From: a virus
Lineage: Duplodnaviria; Caudoviricetes
Strand: one strand, 5' to 3'
Virus record (IMG/VR): IMGVR_UViG_3300025099_000028
Location: 1 to 54,514 of that record
Length of the DNA stretch: 54,514 nt
The notes below the pieces were generated by a model, which was given only the letters and a program-made list of their open reading frames with translations, made no database searches and was not told the origin of the DNA. This document shows, in pieces, positions 26,285 through 47,536 of this stretch; within the stretch, counting starts at the first letter, position 1, and every line of letters begins with the position of its first letter. A program made the position numbers and the translations under genes.

Positions 26285-27324
26285 TGAATCAAGCAGAATG
26301 CGAAGCACAAGGAGGTGAGTGGTTTGGCCCATCAGGTGACTGTAATATGGAAGGAGATCCTAATGTAGGGGGGACTAACGATACAACAGATGAAGGAGAT
26401 AGTACATTAGAAGGAGGAACCTTCAACAATGATTGGCAATTTGAAGGATTAGATCTAGACGATATTGAACATACACCTACAACCTGGGAGACAGGCTCTT
26501 CATGGAATGTTACTGATGAGTTCTTAGCTCAAGATGGTATACACACCTTTAATTCAGAAGAAATATTAGCATGGCTTGGACAAGAAGGTTTTGGAGACGA
26601 TATAACACAAGCACAGTCTGATTACATGCAAACATTTGGAGATATTGGGGAGCATTTAGCATTTGATCAGTCTCAAATTGATGAACTCGGTATTGGCTTT
26701 GCTATGCAAGAAGATGCTATGGTTAGTGAGTATGCAGCATGGGAAGAAGGAGCTCATGCTATGCTATTTGGAGAGGGTTGGAATGCAAGTATGGGTTCAG
26801 ATGCAATAGGTGGTGCGATAGGTAACATGAAAGCCTTAGCTCAACAAGAGTTAGATGCATTTGAATTAGCCAATACAGAGCGTAGAAGCCAGGAAAAGAA
26901 AGCTACTGCAGATTTAAGGCGATCAGCATTACAAGGTCTTGCCACAACAAGGAGAGCATCAGCTAGAAGTGGGATATCTTCTGGGATGGGGTCTACAAAA
27001 GGATTAGATAGTTTTGTGAGTAAATCTCGAGAACAATCAGTAGGGTCTAGAGCTGCACAAAAAGACTATTTAGCCTCTGTAACTTCTATTGAAACACAAC
27101 GAAATTTTAATGTTCAGTCAGCTATAGATACTTTTACAAATGAGCAAAGTGCTAAACGATTGGCAAATGAGAATGCAATGACGCAGATGAACTATGATTT
27201 TGCAGCACAAGCTTCTTCTGCATACGATGACTGGTATAGTAGTCTAGTTGGAATGGCGGGGGCTTACTTCCAAACTGCAGCATCTGATGGTGAAAATTTC
27301 GATTTATTTGGAACAGGAGGATAA
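26284..27324 (+). CDS. internal virion protein
   Basis: acidic N-terminal half, Ala/Gln helical C-terminal half with ARSGISSG. Confidence 0.6.
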   Translation: MNQAECEAQGGEWFGPSGDCNMEGDPNVGGTNDTTDEGDSTLEGGTFNNDWQFEGLDLDDIEHTPTTWETGSSWNVTDEFLAQDGIHTFNSEEILAWLGQEGFGDDITQAQSDYMQTFGDIGEHLAFDQSQIDELGIGFAMQEDAMVSEYAAWEEGAHAMLFGEGWNASMGSDAIGGAIGNMKALAQQELDAFELANTERRSQEKKATADLRRSALQGLATTRRASARSGISSGMGSTKGLDSFVSKSREQSVGSRAAQKDYLASVTSIETQRNFNVQSAIDTFTNEQSAKRLANENAMTQMNYDFAAQASSAYDDWYSSLVGMAGAYFQTAASDGENFDLFGTGG

Positions 27325-27325
27325 G

Positions 27326-28402
27326 ATGTCTACTTATACAGACTCACAATCAGATTTATTTTGGGATCCATTTGCCTCTCATTGGGAGCAATTAGGCTTT
27401 ACTGGGGCAGATGAAGTTTATGAGCGTTATGGAAAATTATTTCCTGGATATGACCCGCATGAAGAGAATATGTTATACGCGCAAACTGATGCTCAGACTT
27501 CTGGAGAATTAGCGGCCTATAATTTAATGGCCTCTAATGAAAGCAATCGAATAGCTCTTAATGTAGAAAATAGACAGACTATGTCTGAACTTGGTCTAGA
27601 TAGTTTATATAGAAATCAAGGTGCTAATGAGGAATTAAATTCCTTAAAGAAAGACTCTATTACAAGAGCTGCTATTGAGTCTATTGATAAAGCTAAATCT
27701 GCTGCAGGTCGATCTGGATTGAGTTCTGGTTCTATGATGAGTAGTATGGATATGGCTGTTGATACTGTTAAATCAAAGATTAATGCAGCTAATGCCTCAC
27801 AATCATTTTCTCGTAAAAAAACAAATCAATCTATTGAAAATTTAAAGGCTAATGTTGGTTATTTAGACGCTAACAGAAACTGGGTACAAGGTTCACAAGG
27901 GAAACTAGAGCAATTAAAATCAGAAACCAGTTTAGGTATGGCAAATCTTAAAATGGAGAATAGACATGGTATTAGAGATTTTGATACTGAAATGAAGGCT
28001 GGCGACATGTATGAAGCATGGCAGCAAGATATTATTGAGTCTGTAGGGAAAATGTTTAGAATGGATCCACGTGGAGAGAATGCAACAAACTGTACGGATA
28101 GTTATGGTGAAGGCGCTTGGGATGTTGCTACAGCGACATGTACAGGAGCTCCTCCTCCTCCCGTTAGCTGCTATGAAGCTTGTATAAATGCCGGTGGACT
28201 TCCAACGCATTGCGGGCAAGATTGTGCTGAGGAAGAGGCGCAACAAGATCAAGGTGATGCTTCTGGAGATGATTATGATTCAGGCTATGGCGATGAAGGA
28301 GATGAACAAGGAGGTGGTGATTGGGATTATGGTGACTCTGACTATGATGACTATGGTGACTATGACTATGGCGATGAAGGCGATTATTATGACGGCCCTT
28401 GA
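27326..28402 (+). CDS. internal virion protein with Cys-rich and DYGD low-complexity tail
   Basis: start ATG 27326 after GGAGG; GRSGLSSG segment like the previous gene. Confidence 0.6.
   Translation: MSTYTDSQSDLFWDPFASHWEQLGFTGADEVYERYGKLFPGYDPHEENMLYAQTDAQTSGELAAYNLMASNESNRIALNVENRQTMSELGLDSLYRNQGANEELNSLKKDSITRAAIESIDKAKSAAGRSGLSSGSMMSSMDMAVDTVKSKINAANASQSFSRKKTNQSIENLKANVGYLDANRNWVQGSQGKLEQLKSETSLGMANLKMENRHGIRDFDTEMKAGDMYEAWQQDIIESVGKMFRMDPRGENATNCTDSYGEGAWDVATATCTGAPPPPVSCYEACINAGGLPTHCGQDCAEEEAQQDQGDASGDDYDSGYGDEGDEQGGGDWDYGDSDYDDYGDYDYGDEGDYYDGP
28322..28392 (+). repeat. degenerate GAYTATGGY/GAYTAT short tandem repeat encoding DYG/DY
   Basis: gattatggtgactctgactatgatgactatggtgactatgactatggcgat. 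Confidence 0.6.
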
Positions 28403-29737: not shown

Positions 29738-32700
29738 ATGAGCGTAAATAAGTATGATAGCGAAGGATTTGCAGCTAGGCTACGTGAACACTTTCCTACT
29801 CTATATGGTAGTACTCAATGGACTGATGATGAAATAAATGAAAATTGGATACAATCCCACCCTGAAGATATAGCACACCTATCACAAGAAGCTCAAAATA
29901 AATACTTAGATTATGATGTTGCATCTGGTAATTATGGCTATAAGCATACTGCTACCCAAGCTATTATGGATGATAGTTATGATGATACAGCGTATGCTTT
30001 TGCAAATAGAATAGTCCATGGGATGAAGCAATTCCCGTCAATGATGGTAGAGGGAGCATTAGGAATCCCAAATAGTACGAGGCAGTGGATAAAGTCTTAT
30101 GATGAAGCTGTTAAGAGTGGGCTTCTTAAGCGTGGCAGTCAACTTGGGGTTGGGTCTAAATTTATCAGAGATGAGCCATACAGGCCTGATTATGAAGAAC
30201 TAGATGAAGCCGGAGTCAATTACCTTGAAAAAGAAGATGTTCCTGGTTTAACTACCGCAATGACGGGATTGAATATGATTGCAGATGGTTCATTTCATGC
30301 GTCTGAGTATGTACGAGAATGGACAAATAAAAAGGCTGATGAATGGATAGCTAATGATGTAGAGCTACAATCATATTATGCATGGAAAGAAGATAACCCT
30401 TATACCATAAAAGATTTTATAGCCCACCCATTTAGAGCGATGAAGAACGGGATTGCAGATATGGCCCCAAGCGTAATTATGATGCTATCTCCTGGATGGC
30501 TAGCAAAGGCAGGCGGATATGCGGCTAAGGTAGGAATGGCCGGGAAAAAAGCTCAAGCATTAAGTGAGGCTGGTAAGGTAGGCAATTGGGCTAAACTAGA
30601 CAAGGCCTCTACATCTCTATATAATGCTAGTAATAGCGTTGGGCTTGGTTTAATGTTTGCTTTAGAGGGTGGCAGTCAATATCATGAGGCAATGAATTAC
30701 CTTGTTGATGAACAGGGTATGGATGCAAAAGAAGCTGCTGGCTTAGCTGGTCTTTCAGCAGCCATGTATGCTCCTGTATCTACATACTTAGAAAAATTAC
30801 AATTCAATTCTATGCTTAGAATGCTTGGATTAAGTAAACGAGCAGATAAGGTTATGTTAAGTGCTATTATGAATAAAGTAGCAGGTAAAGGTGGGGTCAA
30901 GTCTTTCGTGCAAACAGCCAGAAGAGATGCATGGAAGAAATTCGGCCTAGGAGCATTAGACATATCAATCAATGCGTTTGAGCAAGGGGTTGTTGAGGGT
31001 TGGCAAGAAACATGGGGAAGTGTTATAGAGGAGTCTATGAAGCAAGGCTATGGAACTGACCCTGACAGTGCAATAAATGGTATGTTTAGTGCAATGCATG
31101 ATAAGATGGCTGAAGGGGGGCTTGGAGGGATAGCGAAGGGATTAGCCCCTTGGGCATCCGATGATAAGCATGTAAGAGAATCATTCTTCTCTGCCTTGTT
31201 TGGCTCTATAATGCCTGGTGGATTTAATTTGGCTGGAACGGGTAGAAAGGCTTATAAAAGATATCTACAAGGATTAGAAGCTGGAGAAGGTGGTGGATTT
31301 AAGGTTGAAGTTAAGGGGACAAGGGTAACTGTCTTTGATAAAAAGGGTAAGCTTGTATCTGTATATGAAGCAGGTAGTGAAGAAGACGCACAAAGATCTG
31401 CAACAGAGTATGAGCAAGCAATACAAGAAGAGGCTATAACTCATTATGTAGAAACTATGGAAGATATAGATGATCTTGATGAGATGCTTGATAATCTGGA
31501 CATAGATATAACTACTGATAGTTTTGATACTGTTGAAGGTTACGCTAGGAATCTAGCGACTCAAATAGAAAATGGATTTGATGAAATTAATTCTAGCATG
31601 ACCCCTGCAGATAAGTCTAAGCTTAGTGAGATAGAGCAATTAGTCAAGGATGGAGAGGCTCATGATGATAATGTAGGGCTTAAAGCATTAAATCTTATTA
31701 AATATTCAGGAAATGCAAATATATTTAGAAAAGCTGGAGTTTCTTCTGGGACTATTGATGCTATCGAAGCTGCTGCTGTAGTTGCTATTAATGCTATGAC
31801 TGCTAATTCTTTATTAAAAAGATTAAAGTCTGGTAAAAAGGTTAGCAAGGGGGCTATGGATAAAGCACTCTCTAAGGCATCAACAGTAGAAGTGTTGGCT
31901 CATATAGCCAATGGAACTTATATGGATGTTTTAGTGCCTAGCTTGCTTAAAGAAGCCAAGATAGAGGTGAAACCCCGCAAGAAGCGTAAAAAGGTTACTA
32001 AAGAAACCGCAGAAGAGTTCAATCAAGCATTAGAAGATGAAATAAACGATAAGATAAACTCTGAGCCTGATATTACTCCAGGCCCACAAACTTCTATGAA
32101 AGATTCATTAGAGAAAAAGATAAAAGGAAAAGATTTCTCTAAGATTAATAGTAAGAAATTAACTGCAAAAAATATTACAGACCACTTAAAATATACTTTT
32201 CTTAAAAGTGGTAGCACTAAACTTGCAAATATATTACGAACTCTAAATAAGACTAATATTTATAAAATATCTAAGTCTCTTGGTATCAAGATGACTAAAA
32301 AGGATATATCTACTAATCAAACAGCTGCATTAGAGGCTATAGCTAGAAAAATTATGTCTCAAACTGATCCTATTAGTGTGGCTGCCAATGCAGTTGACAC
32401 ACAAACAGTTGATGAAGATGGAGACTGGAAGGATACTGAAGAGCCTAAGCCTAAAAAGAAGGCTACTAAAAGAACTACCAAAAAGAAGCCTGCTCCTAAG
32501 CAAAAGCGAAAAGCTACCAAAACTACTAAAGCTATTGATGAAACTATTGAGTCTGAAGAAGCTCTCAGTGATGACCCAGTAGTACTTAAAAAGCAAATAG
32601 CTGCTATCAAGAGAAATCTAGCACGCAATCAAAAGATTGCTGATAAGCCTGCAGCCAAGAAAGAAATAAAGCGTTTAAAGACTTTATTAGGCTCGCTTGA

Positions 32701-32998
32701 AGTGAAGCTTAGTGCTATAGAAGCAGCTGCTGAATTTGAGCAAGAAGCTGAAGAACACTTAAGCGATCCTAGTCCTCCTGAAAAAGAGGTTGAAAAGTTT
32801 GTTGAAGAGGGAGAAGATGATGGATGGGGAGTCCCTAGTAAAACAGCCCTAACTGCAGAAGAATTAGCAGAGCTACAAAAAGAAATGGGCACACCTGGTA
32901 AAGGTAGTTTAAAAAGCAAGGGTGCTAAATCTAAAAAGGCAGGGGAGTCTGCCGCTAAAAAGGCAGAGGATAAAATTGATGATGAATTATGTTGGTAG
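29738..32998 (+). CDS. large ejection/cargo protein with Lys-rich C-terminus
   Basis: 1086 aa; hydrophobic Gly/Ala helices with E...EG.QE motif; single Cys at penultimate residue. Confidence 0.75.
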   Translation: MSVNKYDSEGFAARLREHFPTLYGSTQWTDDEINENWIQSHPEDIAHLSQEAQNKYLDYDVASGNYGYKHTATQAIMDDSYDDTAYAFANRIVHGMKQFPSMMVEGALGIPNSTRQWIKSYDEAVKSGLLKRGSQLGVGSKFIRDEPYRPDYEELDEAGVNYLEKEDVPGLTTAMTGLNMIADGSFHASEYVREWTNKKADEWIANDVELQSYYAWKEDNPYTIKDFIAHPFRAMKNGIADMAPSVIMMLSPGWLAKAGGYAAKVGMAGKKAQALSEAGKVGNWAKLDKASTSLYNASNSVGLGLMFALEGGSQYHEAMNYLVDEQGMDAKEAAGLAGLSAAMYAPVSTYLEKLQFNSMLRMLGLSKRADKVMLSAIMNKVAGKGGVKSFVQTARRDAWKKFGLGALDISINAFEQGVVEGWQETWGSVIEESMKQGYGTDPDSAINGMFSAMHDKMAEGGLGGIAKGLAPWASDDKHVRESFFSALFGSIMPGGFNLAGTGRKAYKRYLQGLEAGEGGGFKVEVKGTRVTVFDKKGKLVSVYEAGSEEDAQRSATEYEQAIQEEAITHYVETMEDIDDLDEMLDNLDIDITTDSFDTVEGYARNLATQIENGFDEINSSMTPADKSKLSEIEQLVKDGEAHDDNVGLKALNLIKYSGNANIFRKAGVSSGTIDAIEAAAVVAINAMTANSLLKRLKSGKKVSKGAMDKALSKASTVEVLAHIANGTYMDVLVPSLLKEAKIEVKPRKKRKKVTKETAEEFNQALEDEINDKINSEPDITPGPQTSMKDSLEKKIKGKDFSKINSKKLTAKNITDHLKYTFLKSGSTKLANILRTLNKTNIYKISKSLGIKMTKKDISTNQTAALEAIARKIMSQTDPISVAANAVDTQTVDEDGDWKDTEEPKPKKKATKRTTKKKPAPKQKRKATKTTKAIDETIESEEALSDDPVVLKKQIAAIKRNLARNQKIADKPAAKKEIKRLKTLLGSLEVKLSAIEAAAEFEQEAEEHLSDPSPPEKEVEKFVEEGEDDGWGVPSKTALTAEELAELQKEMGTPGKGSLKSKGAKSKKAGESAAKKAEDKIDDELCW

Positions 32999-33006
32999 GA
33001 GAATAA

Positions 33007-36000
33007 ATGGCTAATAGTTGCGTCCCAAGACATATTATAGACAAGCAAATTAAGCGTATTGCTACTTTACTTAAAAATGCTGTAGTTGTAGAGATTGATA
33101 AGGTAAAGAAGACTGGTGTAGAATTAGATCCTGGCGAAATAGTTGCTAGCATAAGATCTAATATATTAGATATGCCTGGCAGAGAATGGCTTGCTCCTCT
33201 TATAGATGAAGCTATTGAAATGGCATGGCCAGGTGATAACTTTGTATCTTATTCCTATCATCACGCAATAACTGATATGAACTTTAAGCCTATAACTGTG
33301 GCAACTTTTACAGCCGATGAGTTTGTTAGTAGGGTTGATGAGTTGAAAGAGACTGAAGGTTTTGAAGAAACAAAGGAATATGGAGAAGACCTTGTGGGGT
33401 ATTCATCCCAGAAGTTTGGTGATACTGGGATGGATGCATTTGATGTTAATTTTGACATGGTTATTGGGAAGCGTATATCTGATAAAGACAGACGATTAAA
33501 CGAGACTAGAGCTAGAGAATTTGATAGTTTTGATGACTATCTAGATTGGGTTAAAGATTATTTTGGTTTAGAAACTATATATGATGTTCATATCCCAATG
33601 TTTTATGATAAGGCCCATAAAGATGATACCGGAGATAATAGAGATGTATGGGTAGTCCCGACACTAGAAGATGCTCAGCTGCAATTAGATTCTATTAAGG
33701 CTGGGCTCGGGGGAGGAAAGAATTTTGCTAATAAAATTACTAGATATGGTGATCACTATATTATCTTACATGATAAAGGAGATCATAAGCATATATACCT
33801 AGAGGGTTCAGAACCTACAACCTTAAAACCAGATAAGAAGAGAGAGCCTGGAAAGTCATACAAAAAAGAAATGACTCTTACACAAAAAACAAATCTTCTT
33901 ATATATTGGAACACCCATAATGCAAAGAACTCTATGGAATTTGAAAAAAGGATGCAATATGTATGGACTAATATGGATCCGAATATGGCTATGGAAGATA
34001 TGGAAGATATTGTAAATGCTATTGTAATAGATGGAGATAAGGGAATTATTGGGAAGCCTAATTTCTCATTAAACAACGAGAGGAAAGAGCCTAGATTCCT
34101 AGCAAAGAATTATATCGACAATCTCAAGAGAACAATAAGAGAAAAGCAAGTCGGGAGAATGACACAATATCACCCGATGAAAGAGGCTGGCACTATGATT
34201 CCAAAGAAAGATGGTTCATGGTGGATGAAGCCAGATCAAAATAGATTCAGTAGAAAAGATTTATTGCGATTTGAATATGATTTATCTCAAAACACTAAAG
34301 GTGGTACGCCTGCTCCTATGGTAATGGTAGGGATGACTCCAGGAGATACTGGCACTATTATTACTACTCTAGTTCATCCTGATCATGTAAAAGATTTATT
34401 TGATCCTAAGGAAGCATTAAACACAATGATAAATCTTGGTTTCCCTGATAAAATCATTAATGAATTTAAAGCTCATATAGCTAAGGGTGGCTCTGTTGCT
34501 AAATATCTAATGAAGATGGATAAAGAGCAGCAAGAATTTGACAAGGCTAGAAGAGTTTCAGAGGTTAAGTATAGCGAAGACGCCATAGAGCAGATGGATG
34601 AGCTTAGAACTAAGATAAAAGATATGGATGGCGTTGAGGGTATGGAGGCTGAGCTAAAAGAGGCTAAAATGCTTCTTAAAACTTTGCGTAAAACTGGCAA
34701 AAAGACTAAAGCTCCAAAGATTACTCCTATTGTAGCTGCTCGTATACAGCAAAATAAAGCGTTCCATGCTGCAATGTGGGGACATGGAGCCTCTAAGCTT
34801 CAAGAGTATTTGCAGATAGAAGTTAATGATGGCAATATGACAGCTGAAGATGCTAAGAAGATATATGATGATGCAATAACCTCTATGGCTAAAACTAATA
34901 TGGGAGAGTTAGTTACTCCTTATACAGTGCATTTAGGTGGAGTTATAGCTAGAATAGAATGGCTTAAAGCTGTTCGTGGTGATGATTTCATGCAATATGG
35001 AGCTGAAAAGGATGGTATAAAGAAAGGGGCTAATGCATTTAATGTATTTGATCGTCTCAGAATAGCATTAACTAAAGGAATTTCTCTGTCTGAGATTTCA
35101 GATAGAAGAACTTTTATCATTGATAATAATAGAGTAGAATACTGGCTTGATGGAGAGAAGCTAGACCATGGGCATTTAACTGAAAAGTTAACTGAAATAG
35201 AGAATATTTTTGATGGCGGGTCTATGTCTGGGACTGAAAGCCTAGACTTAATCGCAGAGAAAAATGGCTCTCAAAAAATTAAAGGTAAGGATCATAATCT
35301 CAGAGAGATAAAGACTACAGAGTTTCATGTCGGTGAAGAAGGGATGTTTGAAAAGAAACATGCATTATTTGCTGCTATTGCAGGCCTTGAGATTAGAGAG
35401 ATTGGGAAAAAGGGAGAGCAAGGAGACTTAATCGTTCAAGTAAAAGAAGAAGATGGTCATATAAGGATGAAAGATATAAATGGTAGGATTGTACATCAAA
35501 TATCAGATATGGATGCTACAAAGACTGCTACAGGAGAATATAATTTATTACCAAAAGAAGGTAAAGATGGAAAGGTAAGGCAGTCTAAAGCACCTTATGT
35601 AGAAGCTATGCTTAGCATGGATGACTTTAAAATTGTTATCAGCCCTCATCCTAAATCTTCAGAGACTACATATGGGGCTGTTCAATACTTATCTAATCTT
35701 AATTTTGATTTAAATGAGCTCACACCAGAAGAACGAACATCACTAGAGAAATATCAAAAAGTAATGGAGGATATGATAGGAGAGCAATCTGATATATATA
35801 TTGAGCTGCTATTAGAAGCATCATCTAACCCTAGTGTTTTATGGGATATCATTAAGCATTCATACAGCGATAAGGCTGAGGCCAAGCATGCATTAAAATC
35901 TATACTTAGTACCACTGGCGGTGCAGGACTCTATCACCCTAATAATTTGTCCATGATTAAGCCATTAATATTAAATATGCTAGTCAAAAGAGGTTCAATG

Positions 36001-38058
36001 CAGGCAAGAACTACTGATGATAGGCTGATTAATAAAATTACCAACCCAGTTCTTAAAAAGAAGCTACAGAAAATGGCTAAACATGGGTCTCATTATATCT
36101 TAAAGCCAGGTAGACGTGTTGAAAAAGGTTCTGTTATTTTGTCTGCTGATAATCATGTAATATTTGATCAAATAGTAAAGAAAATATATGATACTGGATA
36201 TTGGAAGGCATGGCGTCTAGCCACCGCACAAGTTACAGGTGACAATACAGCGCCTACCTTTGATCAGTTAAGTGACGAAAAGAAAGCTGAAGTTATGTCT
36301 GCCTTTTTAGAAGAGTTTCCTCAACATGTATTAACCTATAGGTCTCCTATTGGTCAATCAGCCGCTGTTGAGCCCAGAAGGATACAAGCATTTACTTATG
36401 ATGAAGGTAATGCTATATATCACCATCCAGACGATACTTTTGACAGACTTGTTGGTGACCATGATATTGATGAGGCTGGTGTGGTTATGATTACTGATAA
36501 ACAATTGAAAGATATACAAGAATTTCAAAATACTGATCTATATAAGCAGTTCCAAAGCCTTAATGCAGATATTAGCATCTTTAAGCGTGGTGAATCTAAG
36601 CATGTTGGTAGTATTGAAGATACAAGGGATACTATATTAGCCCTTTTAAATGCTACACATGTGCAAGGGCAAGCTGTTAATGCAAAGACTGTTGCATCAG
36701 CCCTGTCTACTAAGTTTGAAGAGATTGAATTGTCTACGGGATTAAAATTAAAACCCAAGAAACTATTCTCTCATAAGAAGAAACATAAGGTTATTATGAA
36801 TTATGCTCCTTTAAGAGAAGGGTTTAATCCAAAAGATTTACCGCCACATGCAAGAGCGGTTGGATATAATAAGAAGGTTAGGAAATGGGAAGACTGGACT
36901 CCAGCTCATGGTAATATGTATATAGAGACAAGTGCAGAGCATGAGTTCTTACTTATTATGAATGCCGCTGTAGATGTAGGTAAAGACGGCATGATGATGA
37001 ATATGTGGGGAGCTTCAGCAGAAAATTGGTTTATAGATAGGATGTTTACCTTTAATAAAAAAGCTCCAGATAAACTTGAATACAAAGCAATAAAAGAAAT
37101 ATTAAGAAAATTTAAAAATAGTAGCCTAAGAAAACTTAGGACTGATAAAACTCAAAAGCCAATGGATATGGGTTTATTGTTTTATATTTTAGGAGAAAAG
37201 CGTAAATTATTAAACTTGAATAGCTCCCAATTAGCAGATTATATAAAGAAGATGCCTGAAGTAAGCTATAGTCAAGGTGAAGGTGAAAATCCTACGAAAA
37301 AGATGGGGGTTACTGTTAAAAATGTTATCATGGTTAATGATGCTAGGATTAATGAGCTCAAATCACAAGAGAAATTAACTAAAGCAGAAAAGAATGAGCT
37401 AAAGAAGCTTGAAGAAGGTACGGTTGAGACACTGGAAGAGAAGTTTATAATGCGCTTGTATGATAAGTTTCAAGAGAAGTTCCCTCAAGGAGAAGGTCAA
37501 CTCGTTGAAGCTCCTCTTATTTTTAATCCCGACAGACAAGATATAGCGCATTCATATGCCCGCAATGAACTCCATGCAGAAATAAAGAGGCGGACCGACG
37601 ATGGGGAAATCTCTGTAGAAGAAATAGAAGAGGGCACTAAATTGGCAGAGAAATTTGCCGATGAATTTTATCCAAATATTGAAGATCTAGAGCCAGCAAA
37701 TGATTCAGATGATACTAAAGAAGAAGCTCGTGAACGATATATTAAGACTAAGCAGGTTGAATTTGATGAAATATTATATGATCTAACTGAAAAGTACAAC
37801 AAAGAGATAGCAAAATTAGAGTCTGAATATGGAGATGCTGTAAGAACTATATTTACTGACAAAATGTTATTTGGAGTAGGTGATAAGAAAAAAATTAGAT
37901 ATATCCCTCCTGTTGAATTACTATCGCCAGATTTAGTCCGTCAATATTTTGAATCTTGGGATAATCATTTTCTAGATAAATCTATATCTAAAGGTGTATT
38001 AGACCAGTCTCAATATGCTTATGATGAGTTAATTAAAATTGCAAGGGAGAAATGTTAA
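33007..38058 (+). CDS. virion-packaged single-chain two-barrel RNA polymerase (crAss/phi14:2 gp66-like)
   Basis: FDGG (35209), K..KKHA, YRSP (R at 36340), GDHDID (36454-36471), GQAVN and AAVDVGKDG (36964-36990) in the expected order. Confidence 0.8.
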   Translation: MANSCVPRHIIDKQIKRIATLLKNAVVVEIDKVKKTGVELDPGEIVASIRSNILDMPGREWLAPLIDEAIEMAWPGDNFVSYSYHHAITDMNFKPITVATFTADEFVSRVDELKETEGFEETKEYGEDLVGYSSQKFGDTGMDAFDVNFDMVIGKRISDKDRRLNETRAREFDSFDDYLDWVKDYFGLETIYDVHIPMFYDKAHKDDTGDNRDVWVVPTLEDAQLQLDSIKAGLGGGKNFANKITRYGDHYIILHDKGDHKHIYLEGSEPTTLKPDKKREPGKSYKKEMTLTQKTNLLIYWNTHNAKNSMEFEKRMQYVWTNMDPNMAMEDMEDIVNAIVIDGDKGIIGKPNFSLNNERKEPRFLAKNYIDNLKRTIREKQVGRMTQYHPMKEAGTMIPKKDGSWWMKPDQNRFSRKDLLRFEYDLSQNTKGGTPAPMVMVGMTPGDTGTIITTLVHPDHVKDLFDPKEALNTMINLGFPDKIINEFKAHIAKGGSVAKYLMKMDKEQQEFDKARRVSEVKYSEDAIEQMDELRTKIKDMDGVEGMEAELKEAKMLLKTLRKTGKKTKAPKITPIVAARIQQNKAFHAAMWGHGASKLQEYLQIEVNDGNMTAEDAKKIYDDAITSMAKTNMGELVTPYTVHLGGVIARIEWLKAVRGDDFMQYGAEKDGIKKGANAFNVFDRLRIALTKGISLSEISDRRTFIIDNNRVEYWLDGEKLDHGHLTEKLTEIENIFDGGSMSGTESLDLIAEKNGSQKIKGKDHNLREIKTTEFHVGEEGMFEKKHALFAAIAGLEIREIGKKGEQGDLIVQVKEEDGHIRMKDINGRIVHQISDMDATKTATGEYNLLPKEGKDGKVRQSKAPYVEAMLSMDDFKIVISPHPKSSETTYGAVQYLSNLNFDLNELTPEERTSLEKYQKVMEDMIGEQSDIYIELLLEASSNPSVLWDIIKHSYSDKAEAKHALKSILSTTGGAGLYHPNNLSMIKPLILNMLVKRGSMQARTTDDRLINKITNPVLKKKLQKMAKHGSHYILKPGRRVEKGSVILSADNHVIFDQIVKKIYDTGYWKAWRLATAQVTGDNTAPTFDQLSDEKKAEVMSAFLEEFPQHVLTYRSPIGQSAAVEPRRIQAFTYDEGNAIYHHPDDTFDRLVGDHDIDEAGVVMITDKQLKDIQEFQNTDLYKQFQSLNADISIFKRGESKHVGSIEDTRDTILALLNATHVQGQAVNAKTVASALSTKFEEIELSTGLKLKPKKLFSHKKKHKVIMNYAPLREGFNPKDLPPHARAVGYNKKVRKWEDWTPAHGNMYIETSAEHEFLLIMNAAVDVGKDGMMMNMWGASAENWFIDRMFTFNKKAPDKLEYKAIKEILRKFKNSSLRKLRTDKTQKPMDMGLLFYILGEKRKLLNLNSSQLADYIKKMPEVSYSQGEGENPTKKMGVTVKNVIMVNDARINELKSQEKLTKAEKNELKKLEEGTVETLEEKFIMRLYDKFQEKFPQGEGQLVEAPLIFNPDRQDIAHSYARNELHAEIKRRTDDGEISVEEIEEGTKLAEKFADEFYPNIEDLEPANDSDDTKEEARERYIKTKQVEFDEILYDLTEKYNKEIAKLESEYGDAVRTIFTDKMLFGVGDKKKIRYIPPVELLSPDLVRQYFESWDNHFLDKSISKGVLDQSQYAYDELIKIAREKC

Positions 38059-41000
38059 TGGCAACTGCATGTCAAATAGGTGAAGAAATGGGTGATAAGC
38101 TTAGTGCAAATAAGGCTAGGCTAGAGCAGACTTATATTAAAACCTTTGGTATACCATTCCTCAATAAGAATGCATTAGGCTTAAGCTTAAAGAGATTAGC
38201 CGCTAAACGCAAGATCCTTAAAAAAGAAATTGGATTCATTAATAAGCAAATGTCTGAGAAAAAAGCTGTAGCTGATGAAAAGTATGGTAGAATGCTTATT
38301 GAATTGCAAGAAGTAGAAGATAAAATTAAGCAATACAGACGTGATTTCATATTTAACGATAAAAAGAATGCTTCTTTAAGAAAGATTCATGATCTTATAC
38401 TTGGAAGATTATCAAAGTATCAGCATGACACTCTATACTCATTAGATCCAGAAACTCAGTTCCCAGTTATATTTGAATACATACAGGGGCAATATACATT
38501 ACCATTTACTAGCTTAAGAGATCTGCCTGCACAAGATTTAGCATCTATTGCTAACAAAATAGAGGCTGTATTCAAAACTGCTGATAAAAAAGCAGCTCAA
38601 AAGAATAGAGGTGAGCTTACTGCGTTTGAGAATACCGTTATGGATCCTGCGCTTGCTATGATGGAGTCTGATGTATCTACGTTAGGATTTCAAATTATTA
38701 ATAAATCTCGTAAGATTATAGATGATGCTAATTCACAAGCAGCTCCATTAAAGAGGAGATTAACTAATGCATTATCTGAGATTGATATGCATGCTAAAAG
38801 CCGTATAGAATTAAATGATTCAGAGAAAGATGCTCTCAAGGTAGAATTAGTAGCTCAAGTGCATAGAATCCTTGATGGAGAAGAAAGACATTTCAAGCCT
38901 ATGCCTGTTATCCAATGGGATAAAAAGGGTAGGGCTAGGTATACCTTTAAAAGCAAGGAAGTTAAGAACTTATACAATAAAATTTTAAGAGACAATATAG
39001 ATAATGATTGGAACGAAGGTGGAGCCATACAGAAGATAGAAATAGATGGCAGGATATCATATTTTATTCCTATTAGGGAGCCTGGAACAGAGGTATTTAA
39101 TGCATATGAGGTTCCATATCAAGTAGGGGCTAATGGCAGGCATAGCCTTTTATACCCCATGACTAGACGTAACCAACAGCAATGGATGGATTTCTTTGCT
39201 AGCGAAGGATTAGCCTCGCATATTGATATATATGGTAATAGAAATGCTGGTATGATGAAGGAGGGTAGATATAGAGCTACTGAAAATGCTCCACGTCAAG
39301 GTCAAAATAAAAAGGGTAAAGAGATTACTGTCCGCTCATATAGTAAGTATGAAATGATTGATGACCAAGCTGCTCCAATCAGTCAAGTAGAGAACTTAGT
39401 AACAGAAGCTCGGGCTGTTTTCAAGGAAATTAGGGAAGTAACAAATCAGAGGGTCCTTGATCAAAAAGGTTTAATGACAGAGGCTGTTCGTACTATGGCA
39501 AATCACCATGGAGTAACTGTGAAGAAGTTTATGGCCAGTGATGAGTTAAATGCAGAATTTATGAAGGTTACTGGCTTAGATAGCTTGAATCTTAATTTCT
39601 CATTATATAATGGCAGAGCTATTAGTATGAATCAATTCTTTAATGAGATGCATGATTATGTTCCCTATAGATATTCAGCTACTGATATGCTTATTGGTGC
39701 TGTAAGAGCTCGTGATGAGATTGCTACAAAGATTGCTAATAAAACCTCTAAACTTAAAGCATTAAATGAAACTGCTGGAGTTGAACGTGGTGTTGATAAA
39801 ATTGCAATAAGGAAAGAGATAAAAGAATTATCAGAGCAGATGAAGATACAAGATGATAATGTTAATGTTATATCTGGTGTAAAACAAAAGCATCAAGTGG
39901 ATAGTGGCAAGATTAATGAGACCACTAAGATGAATGCAGTTAAGCATAGAGGCACAATGATGGAACCTATGCCTTTATATAGAAATGAGCATGGCTTACC
40001 TACTTTTGAGAAGATTGATGCATATGGGCGTGAAAGAGAAATGATATCTCATGGTCGTCGTACTGACTTTGGTGTATTTACTGAGTATATTGATGATGCA
40101 TTCAGACAGATAGAACAAAATGATCTTAAGATTGATCTATTGCATGGGACTTTACAAATGAGTAAAGCTACAAACGACTTTGTTATTGATCATGTAAAAG
40201 CATCCATGGGGAGGCTTGACGTTAAAGCTGGGTTCTTTAATTTAGATTACAGTGATTCTAAATGGGCAAAGATGTTGACTGGTGTTACTAAAAAATTCTG
40301 GGGAAATGAAGACTTTGAGGTAACTGAAGAAATGGTATATAGAAGTGCTAAGTTCCATAGCATGGTTATCTCAGGTTCACTATTGGGATATACATCAGCA
40401 TTAAATAACTACTTTCAACGTCTAAGTGCATGGATAGAAGGCACTGCTAATGGATACTCAGAAGCTAAGAAGTTTATTGATGATTATCCAGTGCTGGCAG
40501 AACAAATCGCTGATGCTGCGGGTGTAACTGACACATTAAACGCTATGGCTGATGCTCTTATGGGTGCATCTGATGGAGCATATACTAAAGGTAGCGGAAT
40601 GCTTGCATTAGGTAGTTATGCTATATTAAAGTTAGATAAGCAGAAGTTCCTAGAAAGTGCATTAGATAATCAATGGTGGCGCAATAGAGTTAATGGTATG
40701 ATTGCCCGTAAAGACCCCAGTAAAAAAATTGATCTAACAACAATGAGGCAGGCATTAAGCGCTATACATGATGCAACTCATGGGGCTCAAGCTTTTATGG
40801 CTAAGAATGAGTTATCTAAGTTAAGCCCAAAACAACTTAAGTCTTTTACTAAAAAGCTAGAAACTATTATGGAAGTAGAAGAGATTAATAAGTATGTGGG
40901 TTGGAAATTGAATGGTGGTTTTTTGGCTGAAACTAAAGCTGGTACTAAATTGCTTGGATTTCAGCCTAGTGAATTAGAGATGCGTAAGCAAATTGCAGTT

Positions 41001-41771
41001 CAAGGAGTACTTGAAGCTGAAAAAGCTGGCATGATTCCTTCCACATGGAGAGAAACATTTGCCGATAATACATTTAAAAGATTAACACATCCTAATGCTA
41101 TTGCATATTCAAGATTATTAGTATATAATACATTATTCGGATTATCTCCTGCATATTTACCTAAAATGTTTAGAGGTGCTTGGGGTACATTCTTATGGAA
41201 ATTCAAGCCATATCAATGGCATCAAGCTAGAAATGAAATGCGTACTATGGAAAACTGGTGGAGAGGAGTTCCTGAAGGCCAAAAAACCAAGGAATTAGTT
41301 AGAATAATAGGCCTTTCTGTTAAGGAATCCCCTTATCTGCCAGGGAAACCAGATTCAAGCTTATCTAATACAGAGCGTAAAATGGCTAGGTTTATAATAT
41401 CTCGCGGATTAATTTCATTACTTACCACAGGGCTTGTGCATACTCCAATGTTTAATTGGGCAATTAATGCCATGAAATATAAAGTATTTAATCGTCAGGT
41501 ATCAGGAGCTGTTCAACGTGGTGGTGAATCAGTACTAGTAAGTGGAATGTTGCAACTATTATTAACAGGAGTTGCTATAACAGGAATGGGATTTGGTGAT
41601 GATGATGAGAGAGGTGATATTTATCAAGGGGCTTATAGATATTTCTTGCCTATCTTTGCGAATGTGCTTATAGACACCTTTACCGGTGAAGATCCAACTA
41701 AAGCTTTACAGATCTATAGTAAAGGTGCCCATACAGCGGTTAACCTTGTATCTGATATAGTATCAGATTAG
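38058..41771 (+). CDS. large ejection/cargo protein with C-terminal hydrophobic region
   Basis: start ATG 38058 overlaps the previous stop, GGGAG SD; TLFG..P...RG..G....KFK.Y segment and TM-like helices. Confidence 0.75.
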   Translation: MATACQIGEEMGDKLSANKARLEQTYIKTFGIPFLNKNALGLSLKRLAAKRKILKKEIGFINKQMSEKKAVADEKYGRMLIELQEVEDKIKQYRRDFIFNDKKNASLRKIHDLILGRLSKYQHDTLYSLDPETQFPVIFEYIQGQYTLPFTSLRDLPAQDLASIANKIEAVFKTADKKAAQKNRGELTAFENTVMDPALAMMESDVSTLGFQIINKSRKIIDDANSQAAPLKRRLTNALSEIDMHAKSRIELNDSEKDALKVELVAQVHRILDGEERHFKPMPVIQWDKKGRARYTFKSKEVKNLYNKILRDNIDNDWNEGGAIQKIEIDGRISYFIPIREPGTEVFNAYEVPYQVGANGRHSLLYPMTRRNQQQWMDFFASEGLASHIDIYGNRNAGMMKEGRYRATENAPRQGQNKKGKEITVRSYSKYEMIDDQAAPISQVENLVTEARAVFKEIREVTNQRVLDQKGLMTEAVRTMANHHGVTVKKFMASDELNAEFMKVTGLDSLNLNFSLYNGRAISMNQFFNEMHDYVPYRYSATDMLIGAVRARDEIATKIANKTSKLKALNETAGVERGVDKIAIRKEIKELSEQMKIQDDNVNVISGVKQKHQVDSGKINETTKMNAVKHRGTMMEPMPLYRNEHGLPTFEKIDAYGREREMISHGRRTDFGVFTEYIDDAFRQIEQNDLKIDLLHGTLQMSKATNDFVIDHVKASMGRLDVKAGFFNLDYSDSKWAKMLTGVTKKFWGNEDFEVTEEMVYRSAKFHSMVISGSLLGYTSALNNYFQRLSAWIEGTANGYSEAKKFIDDYPVLAEQIADAAGVTDTLNAMADALMGASDGAYTKGSGMLALGSYAILKLDKQKFLESALDNQWWRNRVNGMIARKDPSKKIDLTTMRQALSAIHDATHGAQAFMAKNELSKLSPKQLKSFTKKLETIMEVEEINKYVGWKLNGGFLAETKAGTKLLGFQPSELEMRKQIAVQGVLEAEKAGMIPSTWRETFADNTFKRLTHPNAIAYSRLLVYNTLFGLSPAYLPKMFRGAWGTFLWKFKPYQWHQARNEMRTMENWWRGVPEGQKTKELVRIIGLSVKESPYLPGKPDSSLSNTERKMARFIISRGLISLLTTGLVHTPMFNWAINAMKYKVFNRQVSGAVQRGGESVLVSGMLQLLLTGVAITGMGFGDDDERGDIYQGAYRYFLPIFANVLIDTFTGEDPTKALQIYSKGAHTAVNLVSDIVSD

Positions 41772-46727: not shown

Positions 46728-47387
46728 TTACACTACCATCGCTGACTTTTCCAATAACATATTGGGGAAGTTAAACGAAAATTCCTTATTATAAGGCTGT
46801 CCTGTTGCTAGTTTACGTACTGCATTTGCTATAAAACTACCACTCATAAATGCGCAGTATGCCGTTGCTTTTGCAGCACAAGGTTCAGGAGATCCTTCAT
46901 TATCTGAGTACCATGTCTTCTTGTATTTACTTACAGTAGGTTTATCAAAAATATACTGTTGATAGTGCTCTGCCCCCATCCTGCCGTCTATTAAATGTAT
47001 TGGCTTAATAGTTGGGTTAGAGCATAAAGCCTCTACTGCTTGTAATCTTGCTTCCATAGAATCAAAGCCTAATATTGCAATATCTGATTCACCTTGAGGA
47101 TAAAACTCTGTAAATCTTTCGTTATACATGTTAACATGATTAACACCTATAGATTCTAAATGCCCTTTTAATGCATCTACTTTAGACTTATCTATATCTT
47201 CAAGTATATATTGAGATACTCCAATATTTACATCTTCTACTTTATCCATATCATATAGACAAAATTTATTAGCTCCCATTCTCGCTAATTGCATGGCAGT
47301 GGAGCTACCTATAGCCCCACAACCAAGAATGTGAAAATGAAAATCCTCTAAATTGTTTACCAATCCACTTGATCTTTCATTAATCAT
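46728..47387 (-). CDS. ThiF/MoeB/E1-like ubiquitin-activating enzyme
   Basis: ILGCGAIGS, D.DKVE..N, KV.AL, FDSM.AR, IDGR; candidate catalytic Cys in EPCAAK (46878-46880); no CxxC Zn pairs. Confidence 0.9.
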   Translation of the reverse strand: MINERSSGLVNNLEDFHFHILGCGAIGSSTAMQLARMGANKFCLYDMDKVEDVNIGVSQYILEDIDKSKVDALKGHLESIGVNHVNMYNERFTEFYPQGESDIAILGFDSMEARLQAVEALCSNPTIKPIHLIDGRMGAEHYQQYIFDKPTVSKYKKTWYSDNEGSPEPCAAKATAYCAFMSGSFIANAVRKLATGQPYNKEFSFNFPNMLLEKSAMVV

Positions 47388-47536
47388 TAGTCTCCTTTCA
47401 TAGTATGATTTTCTTTAACCCATAATGATATATTTAGCAAAGAGTGAAATATATGATCTTCAGAAGGGTTTTCTTCATAATGTCTTTGCTCTTCATCTAA
47501 ATACATATCAACTATCTTTATTAAATCATTGATCAT
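47387..47536 (-). CDS. 49-aa hypothetical protein between JAB and E1
   Basis: TAATG-coupled on both sides; MINDLIKIVDMYLDEEQRHYEE... Confidence 0.55.
   Translation of the reverse strand: MINDLIKIVDMYLDEEQRHYEENPSEDHIFHSLLNISLWVKENHTMKGD

What the first reader, a model, noticed from the sequence alone, without database searches (positions are those of the whole stretch)
29738..41771. Three giant cargo proteins contain Cys only at their abutting ends: a head-to-tail linked chain?
Seen by reading the translations: ~4000 aa contain only four Cys. These are ...DELCW* (protein 1 end), MANSC... and ...REKC* (RNAP ends) and MATAC... (protein 3 start). The two outer termini have none. Inference: C-terminal to N-terminal disulfides (or shared metal sites) join the separately translated proteins into a pseudo-polyprotein. 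It would be packaged stoichiometrically, threaded through the tail in order and released by cytoplasmic reduction.
Basis: partly seen in the sequence, partly recalled or inferred. Interest (0 to 1): 0.8.

Follow-up and report, generated by a model that had tools for sequence, protein, structure and literature searches.

The report
Terminal cysteines may chain phage cargo
Three giant proteins that this phage carries in its head, one of them an RNA polymerase, have cysteines only at the ends that face each other; the rule holds across crAss-like phages and vanishes where the genes are fused, suggesting the proteins are clipped end to end into one chain for injection.

Summary
The three ORFs (1086, 1683 and 1237 aa) hold 4 Cys in 4006 aa, about 32 expected. 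They sit at P1 residue 1085, P2 residues 5 and 1683, and P3 residue 5.

P2 folds like the virion RNA polymerase of crAss-like phage phi14:2.

The pattern is conserved:
- 84 of 85 distant relatives with a complete C-end carry a Cys in their last 10 residues, with 4 interior Cys in 127,949 aa.
- All 14 GenBank crAss-like genomes examined follow the rule, two with caveats. They include phi14:2 and crAss001, whose trios are detected in virions.

The Cys pairs track gene architecture:
- three genes carry four Cys;
- P1-RNAP|P3 or P1|RNAP-P3 carry one pair, at the remaining split;
- full fusions (3902 and 3651 aa) carry none.

In one matched pair, the fused protein has Ser where its split relative has the C-terminal Cys. 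It then runs straight into the P3 N-terminus.

Most likely they are disulfides that make a redox-cleavable pseudo-polyprotein. The chemistry, ordered threading and reductive release remain untested.

Cys depletion of ejected proteins is already known for N4-like phages. I found no description of the terminal pairs in the papers searched.

The parts
29738..32998 (+). P1, 1086 aa. First protein of the trio, with a conserved Gly/Ala-rich hydrophobic N-terminal region and a Lys/Glu-rich tail. Its single Cys is at 1085.
   Evidence: Homologs P0015 and P0016 both end ..DELCW with a single Cys. The N-terminal region recurs at the start of P1-RNAP fusion proteins.
32990..32992 (+). TGT codon of P1 Cys1085, penultimate residue
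33007..38058 (+). P2, 1683 aa. Two-barrel single-subunit RNA polymerase of the crAss-like virion RNAP / QDE-1 type. Cys only at 5 and 1683.
   Evidence: AF2 model of residues 490-1683 has pLDDT 81 and pTM 0.81. Foldseek top hit is 6vr4_A at E 5.6e-11. C5, C1683 and D1151/D1153/D1155 are invariant in 27 full-length relatives.
33019..33021 (+). TGC codon of P2 Cys5
36457..36471 (+). DHDID (D1151-D1155), presumed catalytic DxDxD metal-binding motif
   Evidence: invariant columns
38053..38055 (+). TGT codon of P2 Cys1683, last residue
38058..41771 (+). P3, 1237 aa (alternative start at 38052). Mostly helical, with one strongly hydrophobic segment near the C-end (1158-1181 of the 1239-aa form). Its single Cys is at 5.
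   Evidence: All 10 homologs have a Cys at position 3-7. AF2 model has pLDDT 75.
38070..38072 (+). TGT codon of P3 Cys5

Best explanation
The three genes encode a split version of one long ejected 'polyprotein': P1, then a crAss-type virion RNA polymerase, then P3. Every interior Cys has been purged, as in other phage proteins that must leave the capsid through the narrow tail channel. The only Cys kept sit within 0-10 residues of the two split points. I propose that the C-terminal Cys of P1 pairs with the N-terminal Cys of the RNAP, and the C-terminal Cys of the RNAP pairs with the N-terminal Cys of P3. The pairing is most likely a disulfide that forms once the virion is outside the reducing cytoplasm. 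The result is a linear head-to-tail chain whose side stubs are only a few residues long, so it could thread through the portal and tail like a single polypeptide. The host's reducing cytoplasm would cut it back into three proteins.

Shown here: the Cys positions, their conservation, their covariation with gene fusion and fission, the RNAP fold, and synteny with the phi14:2 and crAss001 trios.

Inferred: that the pair is covalently linked, that the link is a disulfide, the threading, and the reductive release.
For: (1) Position and depletion in the window: 4 Cys in 4006 aa against 31.8 expected, all at the abutting ends.

(2) Conservation among close relatives.
- RNAP homologs P0005-P0014: 10 of 10 have a Cys as last or penultimate residue. 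9 of 10 have one within the first 8 residues. The tenth is an N-truncated 1065-aa record.
- P1 homologs: 2 of 2. P3 homologs: 10 of 10.
- 5 of 5 IMG/VR loci L002-L006 show the pattern at every junction present.

(3) Conservation among distant relatives (profile search of 1.84e9 representatives, 148 proteins kept).
- 84 of 85 with a complete RNAP C-end have a Cys in the last 10 residues: 31 at the last position and 41 penultimate.
- Interior Cys number 4 in 127,949 aa.
- 17 of 18 stand-alone forms have a Cys in the first 10 residues.
- 0 of 25 long forms have one there, and 24 of 25 long forms have exactly one Cys.
- The C-terminal Cys is one of 6 invariant columns in 40 sequences at 17% mean identity, beside two catalytic Asp.

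(4) Covariation with gene architecture.
- Long forms carry the P1 domain at their N-end, so they are P1-RNAP fusions.
- In 14 of 14 loci with such a fusion it has exactly one Cys, in its last 2 residues, and the next gene (P3) has a Cys within its first 12 residues.
- P0147 (3902 aa, with P1, RNAP and P3 domains) and P0098 (3651 aa, RNAP plus P3) have 0 Cys.
- P0147's nearest IMG/VR relative, L045, is split as 2782 aa (single Cys at 2780..YYNKCKV) plus 1183 aa (single Cys at 5, MATTC..). In P0147 the aligned place reads ..YLEKSNV and continues directly into the P3 N-terminal region.
- P0098's nearest relative, P0109, ends ..KYCG.

(5) GenBank crAss-like genomes: 14 of 14 examined follow the rule.
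- phi14:2: g067 C1797/1797, g066 C3 and C2179/2180, g065 C3.
- crAss001: gp47 C2339/2341, gp50 C5 and C2404/2412, gp49 C5.
- Intestiviridae have P1 | RNAP-P3 fusions (fusion confirmed by blastp). The only terminal Cys are at the remaining split.
- Suoliviridae and Fpv1 have P1-RNAP | P3. Fpv1 gp33 is 4401 aa with a single Cys at 4400.
- In crAss001, DAC15 and cr128_1 the P1 gene lies on the other strand, so the Cys are not a by-product of a gene junction.

(6) Both Cys codons are used (16 TGT and 6 TGC at 22 junction positions, my count), and the distance to the end varies.

(7) Feasibility and logic. Disulfides are seen in the crAss001 virion tail and portal vertex (passages). Cys suppression in ejected proteins is documented for Schitoviridae (passages). 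I confirmed it for N4 gp50, gp51 and gp52 (0 Cys) and for T7 gp15 and gp16 (0 Cys).

(8) Weak only: complex prediction on the last 200 aa of P2 with the first 200 aa of P3 scored 0.51 against a best control of 0.28. That mark was reached by 58 of 80 solved complexes and 2 of 110 mismatched pairs, but at 0.60 or under by only 7 of those 80 and by both mismatches that passed. The runs agree in at least 0% of contacts, and the partner's pLDDT is at least 71.
Against: There is no chemical evidence: nothing here shows a bond.

Disulfides should not form in the cytoplasm where virions assemble. Many crAss-like phages also live in the anoxic gut, and the disulfides seen in crAss001 virions came from purified particles.

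The phi14:2 preprint supposes that fused polyproteins are cleaved into components (passage). If so, continuity of the chain may not be needed after assembly.

Independent events are few. In the tree of 74 RNAP modules, all 22 stand-alone Cys-Cys forms make one clade. The covariation therefore rests on roughly five or more transitions counted across this family and Crassvirales, not on dozens.

Exceptions and soft spots:
- P0134 has a complete C-end but no terminal Cys.
- 11 proteins of 1383-1984 aa lack an N-terminal Cys. They branch beside long forms and look 5'-truncated (P0119 ends like the 2885-aa L009 protein), but this was not proven for each.
- L003 P3 needs a GTG start.
- crAss002 gp33 needs a start 32 codons downstream of the annotated one.
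- The cr10_1 Cys is 10 residues from the end.
- Gut crAss proteins keep some interior Cys, for example 15 in cr271_1 gp48.

The two full fusions are database protein predictions whose DNA I could not inspect.
Confidence: 0.6

Rival explanations
1. The junction Cys pairs do join neighbouring proteins, but not by a disulfide. The two thiolates share a metal ion, or another thiol chemistry is used. Such a link could already form in the reducing cytoplasm and so also serve co-packaging.
For: The same comparative evidence as the main reading. It also answers the objection that disulfides cannot form before assembly or in anoxic habitats.
Against: There is only one Cys per terminus. The termini printed show no conserved His, Asp or second Cys beside it, so a normal 3-4 ligand site is not evident. 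In the same proteins Cys is avoided everywhere else, which points to oxidation as the relevant chemistry.
Confidence: 0.12
2. The terminal Cys act independently of the neighbouring protein. They might make homotypic dimers of like termini, attach to another virion part such as portal, capsid or another cargo protein, or carry a modification. They would then be lost on fusion only because a terminus no longer exists.
For: The sequence alone cannot tell which Cys pairs with which. Other lone near-terminal Cys exist without an obvious partner: p-crAssphage 861-aa protein C860, crAss002 gp30 C550/557, T7 gp14 and gp6.7 Cys2.
Against: The outer ends of the chain (P1 N-end, P3 C-end) never carry a Cys in any architecture. 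The number of terminal Cys is 4, 2 or 0, matching 2, 1 or 0 split points, so a function served by independent anchors would vary or vanish between relatives. In P0147 the two partner ends are joined seamlessly at the Cys site. The window's portal candidate has no Cys.
Confidence: 0.15
3. An enzyme ligates the termini. The phage-encoded ThiF-family E1-like protein would activate a C-terminus that is then attacked by the neighbour's Cys.
For: A ThiF-family gene at 46728-47387(-) lies beside a weak Prok-JAB match in the window. crAss001 also has ThiF gp76 next to a metalloprotease-domain protein gp77 (annotation).
Against: The residues after the C-terminal Cys vary (none, G, K, S, N, W, T and others) rather than forming a Gly-Gly-like tail. 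This scheme does not explain the C-terminal Cys itself. The ThiF gene sits in the replication module. No link between the two was tested.
Confidence: 0.03
4. Chance, or a nucleotide-level by-product of overlapping stop/start signals at tightly coupled genes.
For: In the window the last Cys codon of P2 overlaps an alternative ATG of P3. Many junctions are ATGA/TAATG-type overlaps.
Against: Both Cys codons occur, and distances to the ends vary. Some junctions have gaps of 9-170 nt. In crAss001, DAC15 and cr128_1 the P1 gene is on the opposite strand, yet its product still ends in a lone Cys. Conservation reaches 17% mean identity. The positional chance in the window alone is 6e-11.
Confidence: 0.01

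Closest known systems
Virion RNA polymerase module of crAss-like phages (phi14:2 gp67-gp66-gp65; crAss001 gp47, gp50, gp49)
   Same: There are three giant proteins in the order flanking protein, RNAP, flanking protein. The RNAP fold matches 6vr4_A (E 5.6e-11). The trio is present in virions of phi14:2 and crAss001. Fusion of the three into one polyprotein in some phages is already noted (passage). The same terminal-Cys rule holds, as found here.
   Different: There is no detectable sequence similarity: tblastn, hmmsearch and hhalign were negative or weak. The genome is 54.5 kb against about 100 kb, and the proteins are about one third shorter. No HExxH zincin motif occurs in the window's trio, although related long forms have one.
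Schitoviridae (N4 gp50, DEV gp71) giant virion RNA polymerase and ejection proteins
   Same: The RNAP is ejected ahead of or with the DNA through a channel of about 35 A. It is thought to travel unfolded as 'beads on a string', with an N-part, RNAP and C-part (passages). Near-total suppression of Cys is known (passages) and was confirmed here: N4 gp50 has 0 Cys in 3500 aa.
   Different: It is one polypeptide with a T7-like RNAP fold, so it has no split points and no terminal Cys.
Disulfide-linked two-chain bacterial toxins (mechanistic analogy only)
   Same: A single interchain disulfide holds a cargo chain to its partner until reduction in the target cytosol. Sources are the abstract of PMC6899712 in the listing and, beyond that, my own knowledge.
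   Different: Those chains arise by nicking one polypeptide, the disulfide is not at the extreme termini, and they are unrelated in sequence, fold and biology.
T7-like internal core / ejectosome proteins (gp14, gp15, gp16)
   Same: They are ejected proteins stored in the capsid and are Cys-free (gp15 and gp16 have 0 Cys). The weak top Foldseek rows for P3 are T7 and PhiM1 core proteins (E 0.017 and 0.048, prob 0.41).
   Different: The fold match is not significant, and these proteins include no RNAP.
Polyvalent proteins of phages and conjugative elements (Iyer et al. 2017; recalled, not read here)
   Same: They are giant multi-domain proteins delivered with the DNA. The nearest named Atlas clusters carry LPD domains in 25-66% of their members (leads only).
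   Different: No Pfam LPD family matches the trio. Here the chain is split into genes and, by my reading, re-joined.

Membership tests
crAss-like virion RNAP (phi14:2 gp66 type, two-barrel single-subunit RNAP) | Double-psi beta-barrel RNAP fold | tested here: met
   AF2 model of P2 490-1683 has pLDDT 81. The Foldseek top hit is 6vr4_A at E 5.6e-11 and prob 1.00, followed by QDE-1 and bacterial beta'. TM-scores are low (0.19-0.38), so the match is domain-level.
crAss-like virion RNAP (phi14:2 gp66 type, two-barrel single-subunit RNAP) | Catalytic Asp triad (DxDxD; DFDxD in crAss-like phages per the abstract) | tested here: met
   DHDID at 1151-1155. D1151, D1153 and D1155 are invariant in 27 relatives.
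crAss-like virion RNAP (phi14:2 gp66 type, two-barrel single-subunit RNAP) | Sequence homology to Crassvirales RNAPs | tested here: not met
   tblastn against phages found no match. hmmsearch of family profiles against 24 crAss proteins hit only what I take to be the zincin-like part of the long-form profile, inferred from which proteins matched; coordinates were not examined. hhalign gave probability 1.7%.
crAss-like virion RNAP (phi14:2 gp66 type, two-barrel single-subunit RNAP) | Packaged in the virion and ejected | not testable with these tools
   Inferred from its place at the end of the structural module and from the phi14:2 and crAss001 data.
crAss-like virion RNAP (phi14:2 gp66 type, two-barrel single-subunit RNAP) | Flanked by two giant virion proteins, fused with them in some relatives | tested here: met
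Order Crassvirales (the phage as a whole) | Homologous portal, capsid and terminase, and a genome of about 90-105 kb | tested here: not met
   The record is 54.5 kb and rated complete. tblastn of 11 window proteins against 50-kb stretches of phi14:2 (which includes portal, capsid and part of the terminase gene) and of crAss001 found no hit at E 1e-3. This used sequence-level searches only.
Cys-suppressed phage ejection proteins | Cys frequency far below the proteome's | tested here: met
   0 interior Cys in the trio against 0.79% elsewhere in the window. 4 interior Cys in 127,949 aa across relatives. Schitoviridae precedent.
Split intein / protein trans-splicing | Intein halves at the split ends, with Cys as the first extein residue | tested here: not met
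   No Pfam domain was found. Only 2-7 residues precede the N-terminal Cys and 0-10 follow the C-terminal one.
Bacterial lipoprotein (lipobox Cys) | Signal peptide with a hydrophobic core before the Cys | tested here: not met
   The Cys is at position 3-8 with no hydrophobic stretch before it.
Disulfide-linked hetero-oligomer | A demonstrated inter-chain S-S bond | not testable with these tools
   Only covariation and a weak complex prediction are available.

The most novel reading that the evidence does not exclude
Head-to-tail disulfide concatenation is an old and general design of crAss-like phages and their small relatives. The RNAP cargo is one 'polyprotein' that evolution has repeatedly cut into genes and re-fused. 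Wherever it is cut, a pair of terminal Cys restores the chain after translation. The bond would be a redox-cleavable linker. It lets 4000-9000 residues thread through the tail as one string and then frees, and perhaps activates, the polymerase when it meets the reducing cytoplasm. The same trick may serve other split giant cargo proteins (loci L021-L025).
Probability: 0.5. Interest if true: 0.9.

Novelty: new variant of a known kind. Interest (0 to 1): 0.85.

Why it matters
Crassvirales are the most abundant phages of the human gut. How their huge RNA-polymerase cargo is stored, ejected and switched on is an open question: the phi14:2 preprint says activation 'remains to be determined' (passage), and the crAss001 atlas could not resolve the cargo.

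A four-residue rule that holds from a 54-kb uncultured phage to phi14:2, crAss001 and p-crAssphage gives a concrete hypothesis that is cheap to test in cultured systems. Suitable tests are non-reducing gels, disulfide mapping and Cys-to-Ser phage mutants.

If true, it would be a new way for a virus to build a polyprotein, by re-joining separately translated chains end to end. It would also add a redox timer to phage infection. In addition, it would give annotators a simple marker for finding the partners of split cargo genes, even when they lie on opposite strands.

Tried and rejected
Searches that found nothing:
- Pfam and PHROGs on the trio: no family.
- tblastn of P2 and of the long form P0066 against 50,697 phage records: no match.
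- PDB sequence searches with P2 and with profile A2: nothing relevant.
- The search for related loci with P2 alone, with A7 and with P0098: nothing. With A4 the alignment was too diverse to search.

Links to Crassvirales at sequence level:
- hmmsearch of my P1, RNAP and P3 profiles against 24 GenBank crAss proteins returned nothing at default filters. With --max only the long-form profile matched; I take this to be its zincin-like part, inferred from which proteins matched, since coordinates were not examined.
- hhalign gave probability 62-81% over 31-70 columns for P1, 0.2-0.4% for P3 and 0.2-1.7% for RNAP.

P3 fold:
- Foldseek gave no hit at E <= 0.001. The top rows were T7 and PhiM1 core proteins.
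- The VIA second look was filled by a generic N-terminal helical hairpin. The P3 fold is left open.

Other leads:
- The Atlas gave only leads.
- The published Nature version of the phi14:2 paper is not held, so I read passages of the preprint only.
- Supplements and extended tables could not be seen. These include crAss001 Extended Data Table 2, which lists disulfides and of which I saw only the legend, 'stabilising the tail assembly'. They might bear on cargo disulfides.

Readings rejected:
- A nucleotide artefact of gene junctions, because of opposite-strand P1 genes, both Cys codons and variable spacing.
- A lipobox.
- A split intein.
- A cysteine switch on the zincin domain, because the window's trio has no HExxH motif.
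- A single four-Cys metal hub, which cannot hold in the two-Cys and zero-Cys architectures.

Downgraded claim: I first took loci L021-L024 (1224 aa plus 2713 aa) for P1|RNAP-P3 forms. No RNAP or P3 profile and no DxDxD motif matched them. That architecture now rests on Intestiviridae instead.


Full report
**1. The observation.** The window is a whole IMG/VR virus record of 54,514 bp, rated complete. Terminase, portal, capsid and tail-spike genes are followed on the + strand by large unannotated genes. The last three of these are the finding: 29738-32998 (P1, 1086 aa), 33007-38058 (P2, 1683 aa) and 38058-41771 (P3, 1237 aa, or 1239 aa from an ATG at 38052).

A script finds Cys only at P1 1085/1086, P2 5 and 1683/1683, and P3 5. 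The other 44 ORFs taken as genes hold 98 Cys in 12,328 aa, so 31.8 were expected in the trio. P(<=4) is 7e-10, and the chance of the four positions is 6e-11.

**2. What the proteins are.** Pfam, PHROGs, tblastn against 50,697 phage records and PDB sequence searches gave nothing.

An AlphaFold2 model of P2 residues 490-1683, built on 40 relatives, reached pLDDT 81 and pTM 0.81. Its best Foldseek match is 6vr4_A, the virion-packaged RNA polymerase of crAss-like phage phi14:2 (E 5.6e-11). QDE-1 polymerases and bacterial beta' subunits follow. DHDID at 1151-1155 is invariant. The label 'RNAP' therefore holds at fold level, although sequence-level links to Crassvirales are absent.

P3 is mostly helical with one strongly hydrophobic segment near its C-end. 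Its fold search was not significant, with T7 and PhiM1 core proteins on top at E 0.017-0.048. The second look was uninformative. P1 has a conserved Gly/Ala-rich N-terminal region that recurs in all related long proteins.

**3. Conservation.**
- RNAP homologs at 26-89% identity: 10 of 10 end in a Cys at the last or penultimate position. 9 of 10 have a Cys within the first 8 residues, and the tenth is a truncated record. Only one has interior Cys.
- P1 homologs: 2 of 2. P3 homologs: 10 of 10.
- Five IMG/VR loci with RNAPs at 25-35% identity show the same four-Cys pattern at every junction present. L003 needs a GTG start for P3.
- A profile search of 1.84 billion representatives gave 227 hits, of which I analysed the 148 listed as new records. 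84 of 85 with a complete C-end have a Cys in the last 10 residues (31 last, 41 penultimate). Interior Cys number 4 in 127,949 aa. 17 of 18 stand-alone forms have an N-terminal Cys.
- The C-terminal Cys is one of only six invariant columns in 40 sequences at 17% mean identity.

**4. Covariation with gene architecture (the key result).** Proteins of 2000-3650 aa carry the RNAP module at their C-end and the P1 domain at their N-end, so they are P1-RNAP fusions.
- 0 of 25 such long forms have an N-terminal Cys, and 24 of 25 have exactly one Cys, at the C-end.
- In 14 of 14 IMG/VR loci with such a fusion, the next gene is P3 with a Cys within its first 12 residues.
- Two proteins continue from the RNAP into a P3 domain: P0147 (3902 aa, with P1, RNAP and P3) and P0098 (3651 aa). 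Both have no Cys at all.
- P0098's nearest relative, P0109, ends ..KYCG.
- P0147's nearest IMG/VR relative, L045, is split into 2782 aa (single Cys..YYNKCKV) and 1183 aa (single Cys, MATTC..). In P0147 the aligned place reads ..YLEKSNV and runs straight on into the region that aligns with residue 7 onward of L045's P3.

A peptide bond thus sits where the Cys pair sits in the split relative.

**5. Crassvirales.** I chose 14 of the 141 GenBank records that match phi14:2 gp66, picking by eye for taxonomic spread. All 14 follow the rule.
- Steigviridae (phi14:2, crAss001, DAC15, cr128_1) have three genes with four terminal Cys. In three of them the P1 gene lies on the opposite strand.
- Intestiviridae (p-crAssphage LMMB, crAss002, Rudgehvirus, cr271_1, cr3_1) have P1 | RNAP-P3. 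blastp confirms the fusion. There is a Cys at the P1 C-end and at residue 3 of the fusion, and none at its C-end.
- Suoliviridae (cr1_1, cr50_1, cr60_1, cr10_1) and Flavobacterium phage Fpv1 have P1-RNAP | P3. Fpv1 gp33 has one Cys in 4401 aa, at 4400.
- Soft spots: crAss002 needs a start 32 codons downstream of the annotated one, the cr10_1 Cys is 10 residues from the end, and gut phages keep some interior Cys.

**6. Comparators and literature.** N4 gp50 (3500 aa), gp51 and gp52 have no Cys. T7 gp15 and gp16 have none, whereas the non-ejected T7 RNAP has 12.

The DEV paper already reports Cys suppression in Schitoviridae ejection proteins. It cites the idea that this reflects passage through the periplasm (passages). 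Interior depletion is therefore a known kind of feature.

The phi14:2 preprint states that the trio is in virions and is fused into one polyprotein in some phages. It contains no occurrence of 'cysteine', 'disulfide' or 'Cys'. The crAss001 atlas reports disulfides only in the tail and portal vertex. Seven full-text searches found no paper describing terminal Cys in these proteins. The published Nature version of the phi14:2 paper and all supplements could not be read.

**7. Mechanism.** The simplest account of 4, 2 or 0 terminal Cys for 2, 1 or 0 split points, with the outer ends always free of Cys, is that each pair bridges its split.

A disulfide fits three facts. These proteins otherwise shun Cys. 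Virions of this group do carry disulfides. The Cys lie at the extreme ends, so a linked junction would have only short stubs and could pass a narrow channel like a single strand. Release by cytoplasmic reduction follows by inference.

A complex prediction for the P2 C-end with the P3 N-end gave only weak support: 0.51 against 0.28 for the best control (calibration counts are given in the For line).

**8. Limits.**
- No bond has been shown.
- Disulfides cannot help packaging in a reducing cytoplasm, and their formation in anoxic habitats is unclear.
- Fused forms may be cleaved after assembly.
- The stand-alone forms in this family are one clade, so independent events are few: about five across both groups, by my count and from taxonomy.
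- One clear exception (P0134) and several probably truncated records exist.
- The two full fusions are predicted proteins whose DNA I could not see.

**9. Verdict.** It is a new feature of a known kind of system, and it is directly testable in cultured phages.

Noticed in passing
window 46728-48444 (-): A ThiF-family (E1-like) protein (E 8e-18) lies next to a 302-aa protein with a weak Prok-JAB match (21.5 bits, below the 25-bit cut-off). crAss001 has the same pairing: ThiF gp76 and metalloprotease-domain gp77.
   Followed up: partly
L039 (phage N4) and L040 (phage T7): N4 gp50, gp51 and gp52 have no Cys. T7 gp15 and gp16 have none. The ejected T7 gp14 and gp6.7 each have a single Cys, at residue 2.
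   Followed up: partly
L021-L025 (IMG/VR loci): Adjacent giant proteins share only an HExxH-containing region with the long forms and have no detectable RNAP or P3 profile or DxDxD motif. They still carry Cys only at abutting ends, for example 1224 aa with a Cys at the last residue followed by 2713 aa with a Cys at residue 5.
   Followed up: partly
P1-RNAP long forms, e.g. L007 3202-11151 around residues 1000-1170; L027 and L028 third proteins: A zincin-like HExxH motif (PHEYAHI) sits between the P1 and RNAP parts in the long forms and in the third protein in L027/L028. It is absent from the window's trio. The domain seems to move within the 'chain'.
   Followed up: partly
L031 1539-4124; L032 1456-3129; L037 490-2763: In Intestiviridae the cargo-like protein two genes upstream of P1 also has a lone Cys near its C-end (860/861, 550/557, 747/757). 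No partner is obvious.
   Followed up: no
gut versus marine relatives (L029-L038 versus L030, L033 and the window's family): Interior Cys are somewhat tolerated in gut crAss cargo proteins (up to 15 in 4620 aa). They are almost absent in phi14:2, Fpv1 and the window's family. This would fit oxidation as the selective force.
   Followed up: no
window 27248-28402 (+): This 384-aa ORF has six Cys clustered at residues 282-326. The ORF at the corresponding upstream position in L002 (homology not tested) has ten Cys in its C-terminal part. No family was found.
   Followed up: no
L036 8094-8339; L037 25780-26055: Some crAss-like genomes annotate a small thioredoxin-like gene in the early/replication region. 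I found none in the window by Pfam among the ORFs tested.
   Followed up: no
P0009: One RNAP homolog is named 'polyhydroxyalkanoate synthesis regulator phasin' by its source. This is probably a low-complexity mis-annotation.
   Followed up: no
L042 (cr60_1): The annotated cargo genes contain 9-55 in-frame stops under table 11, so the phage reads a stop codon as sense. The terminal Cys rule still holds.
   Followed up: no
window about 41.8-41.9 kb: A strand switch occurs, with a sign change of GC and AT skew, directly after P3. The trio closes the rightward structural block.
   Followed up: no
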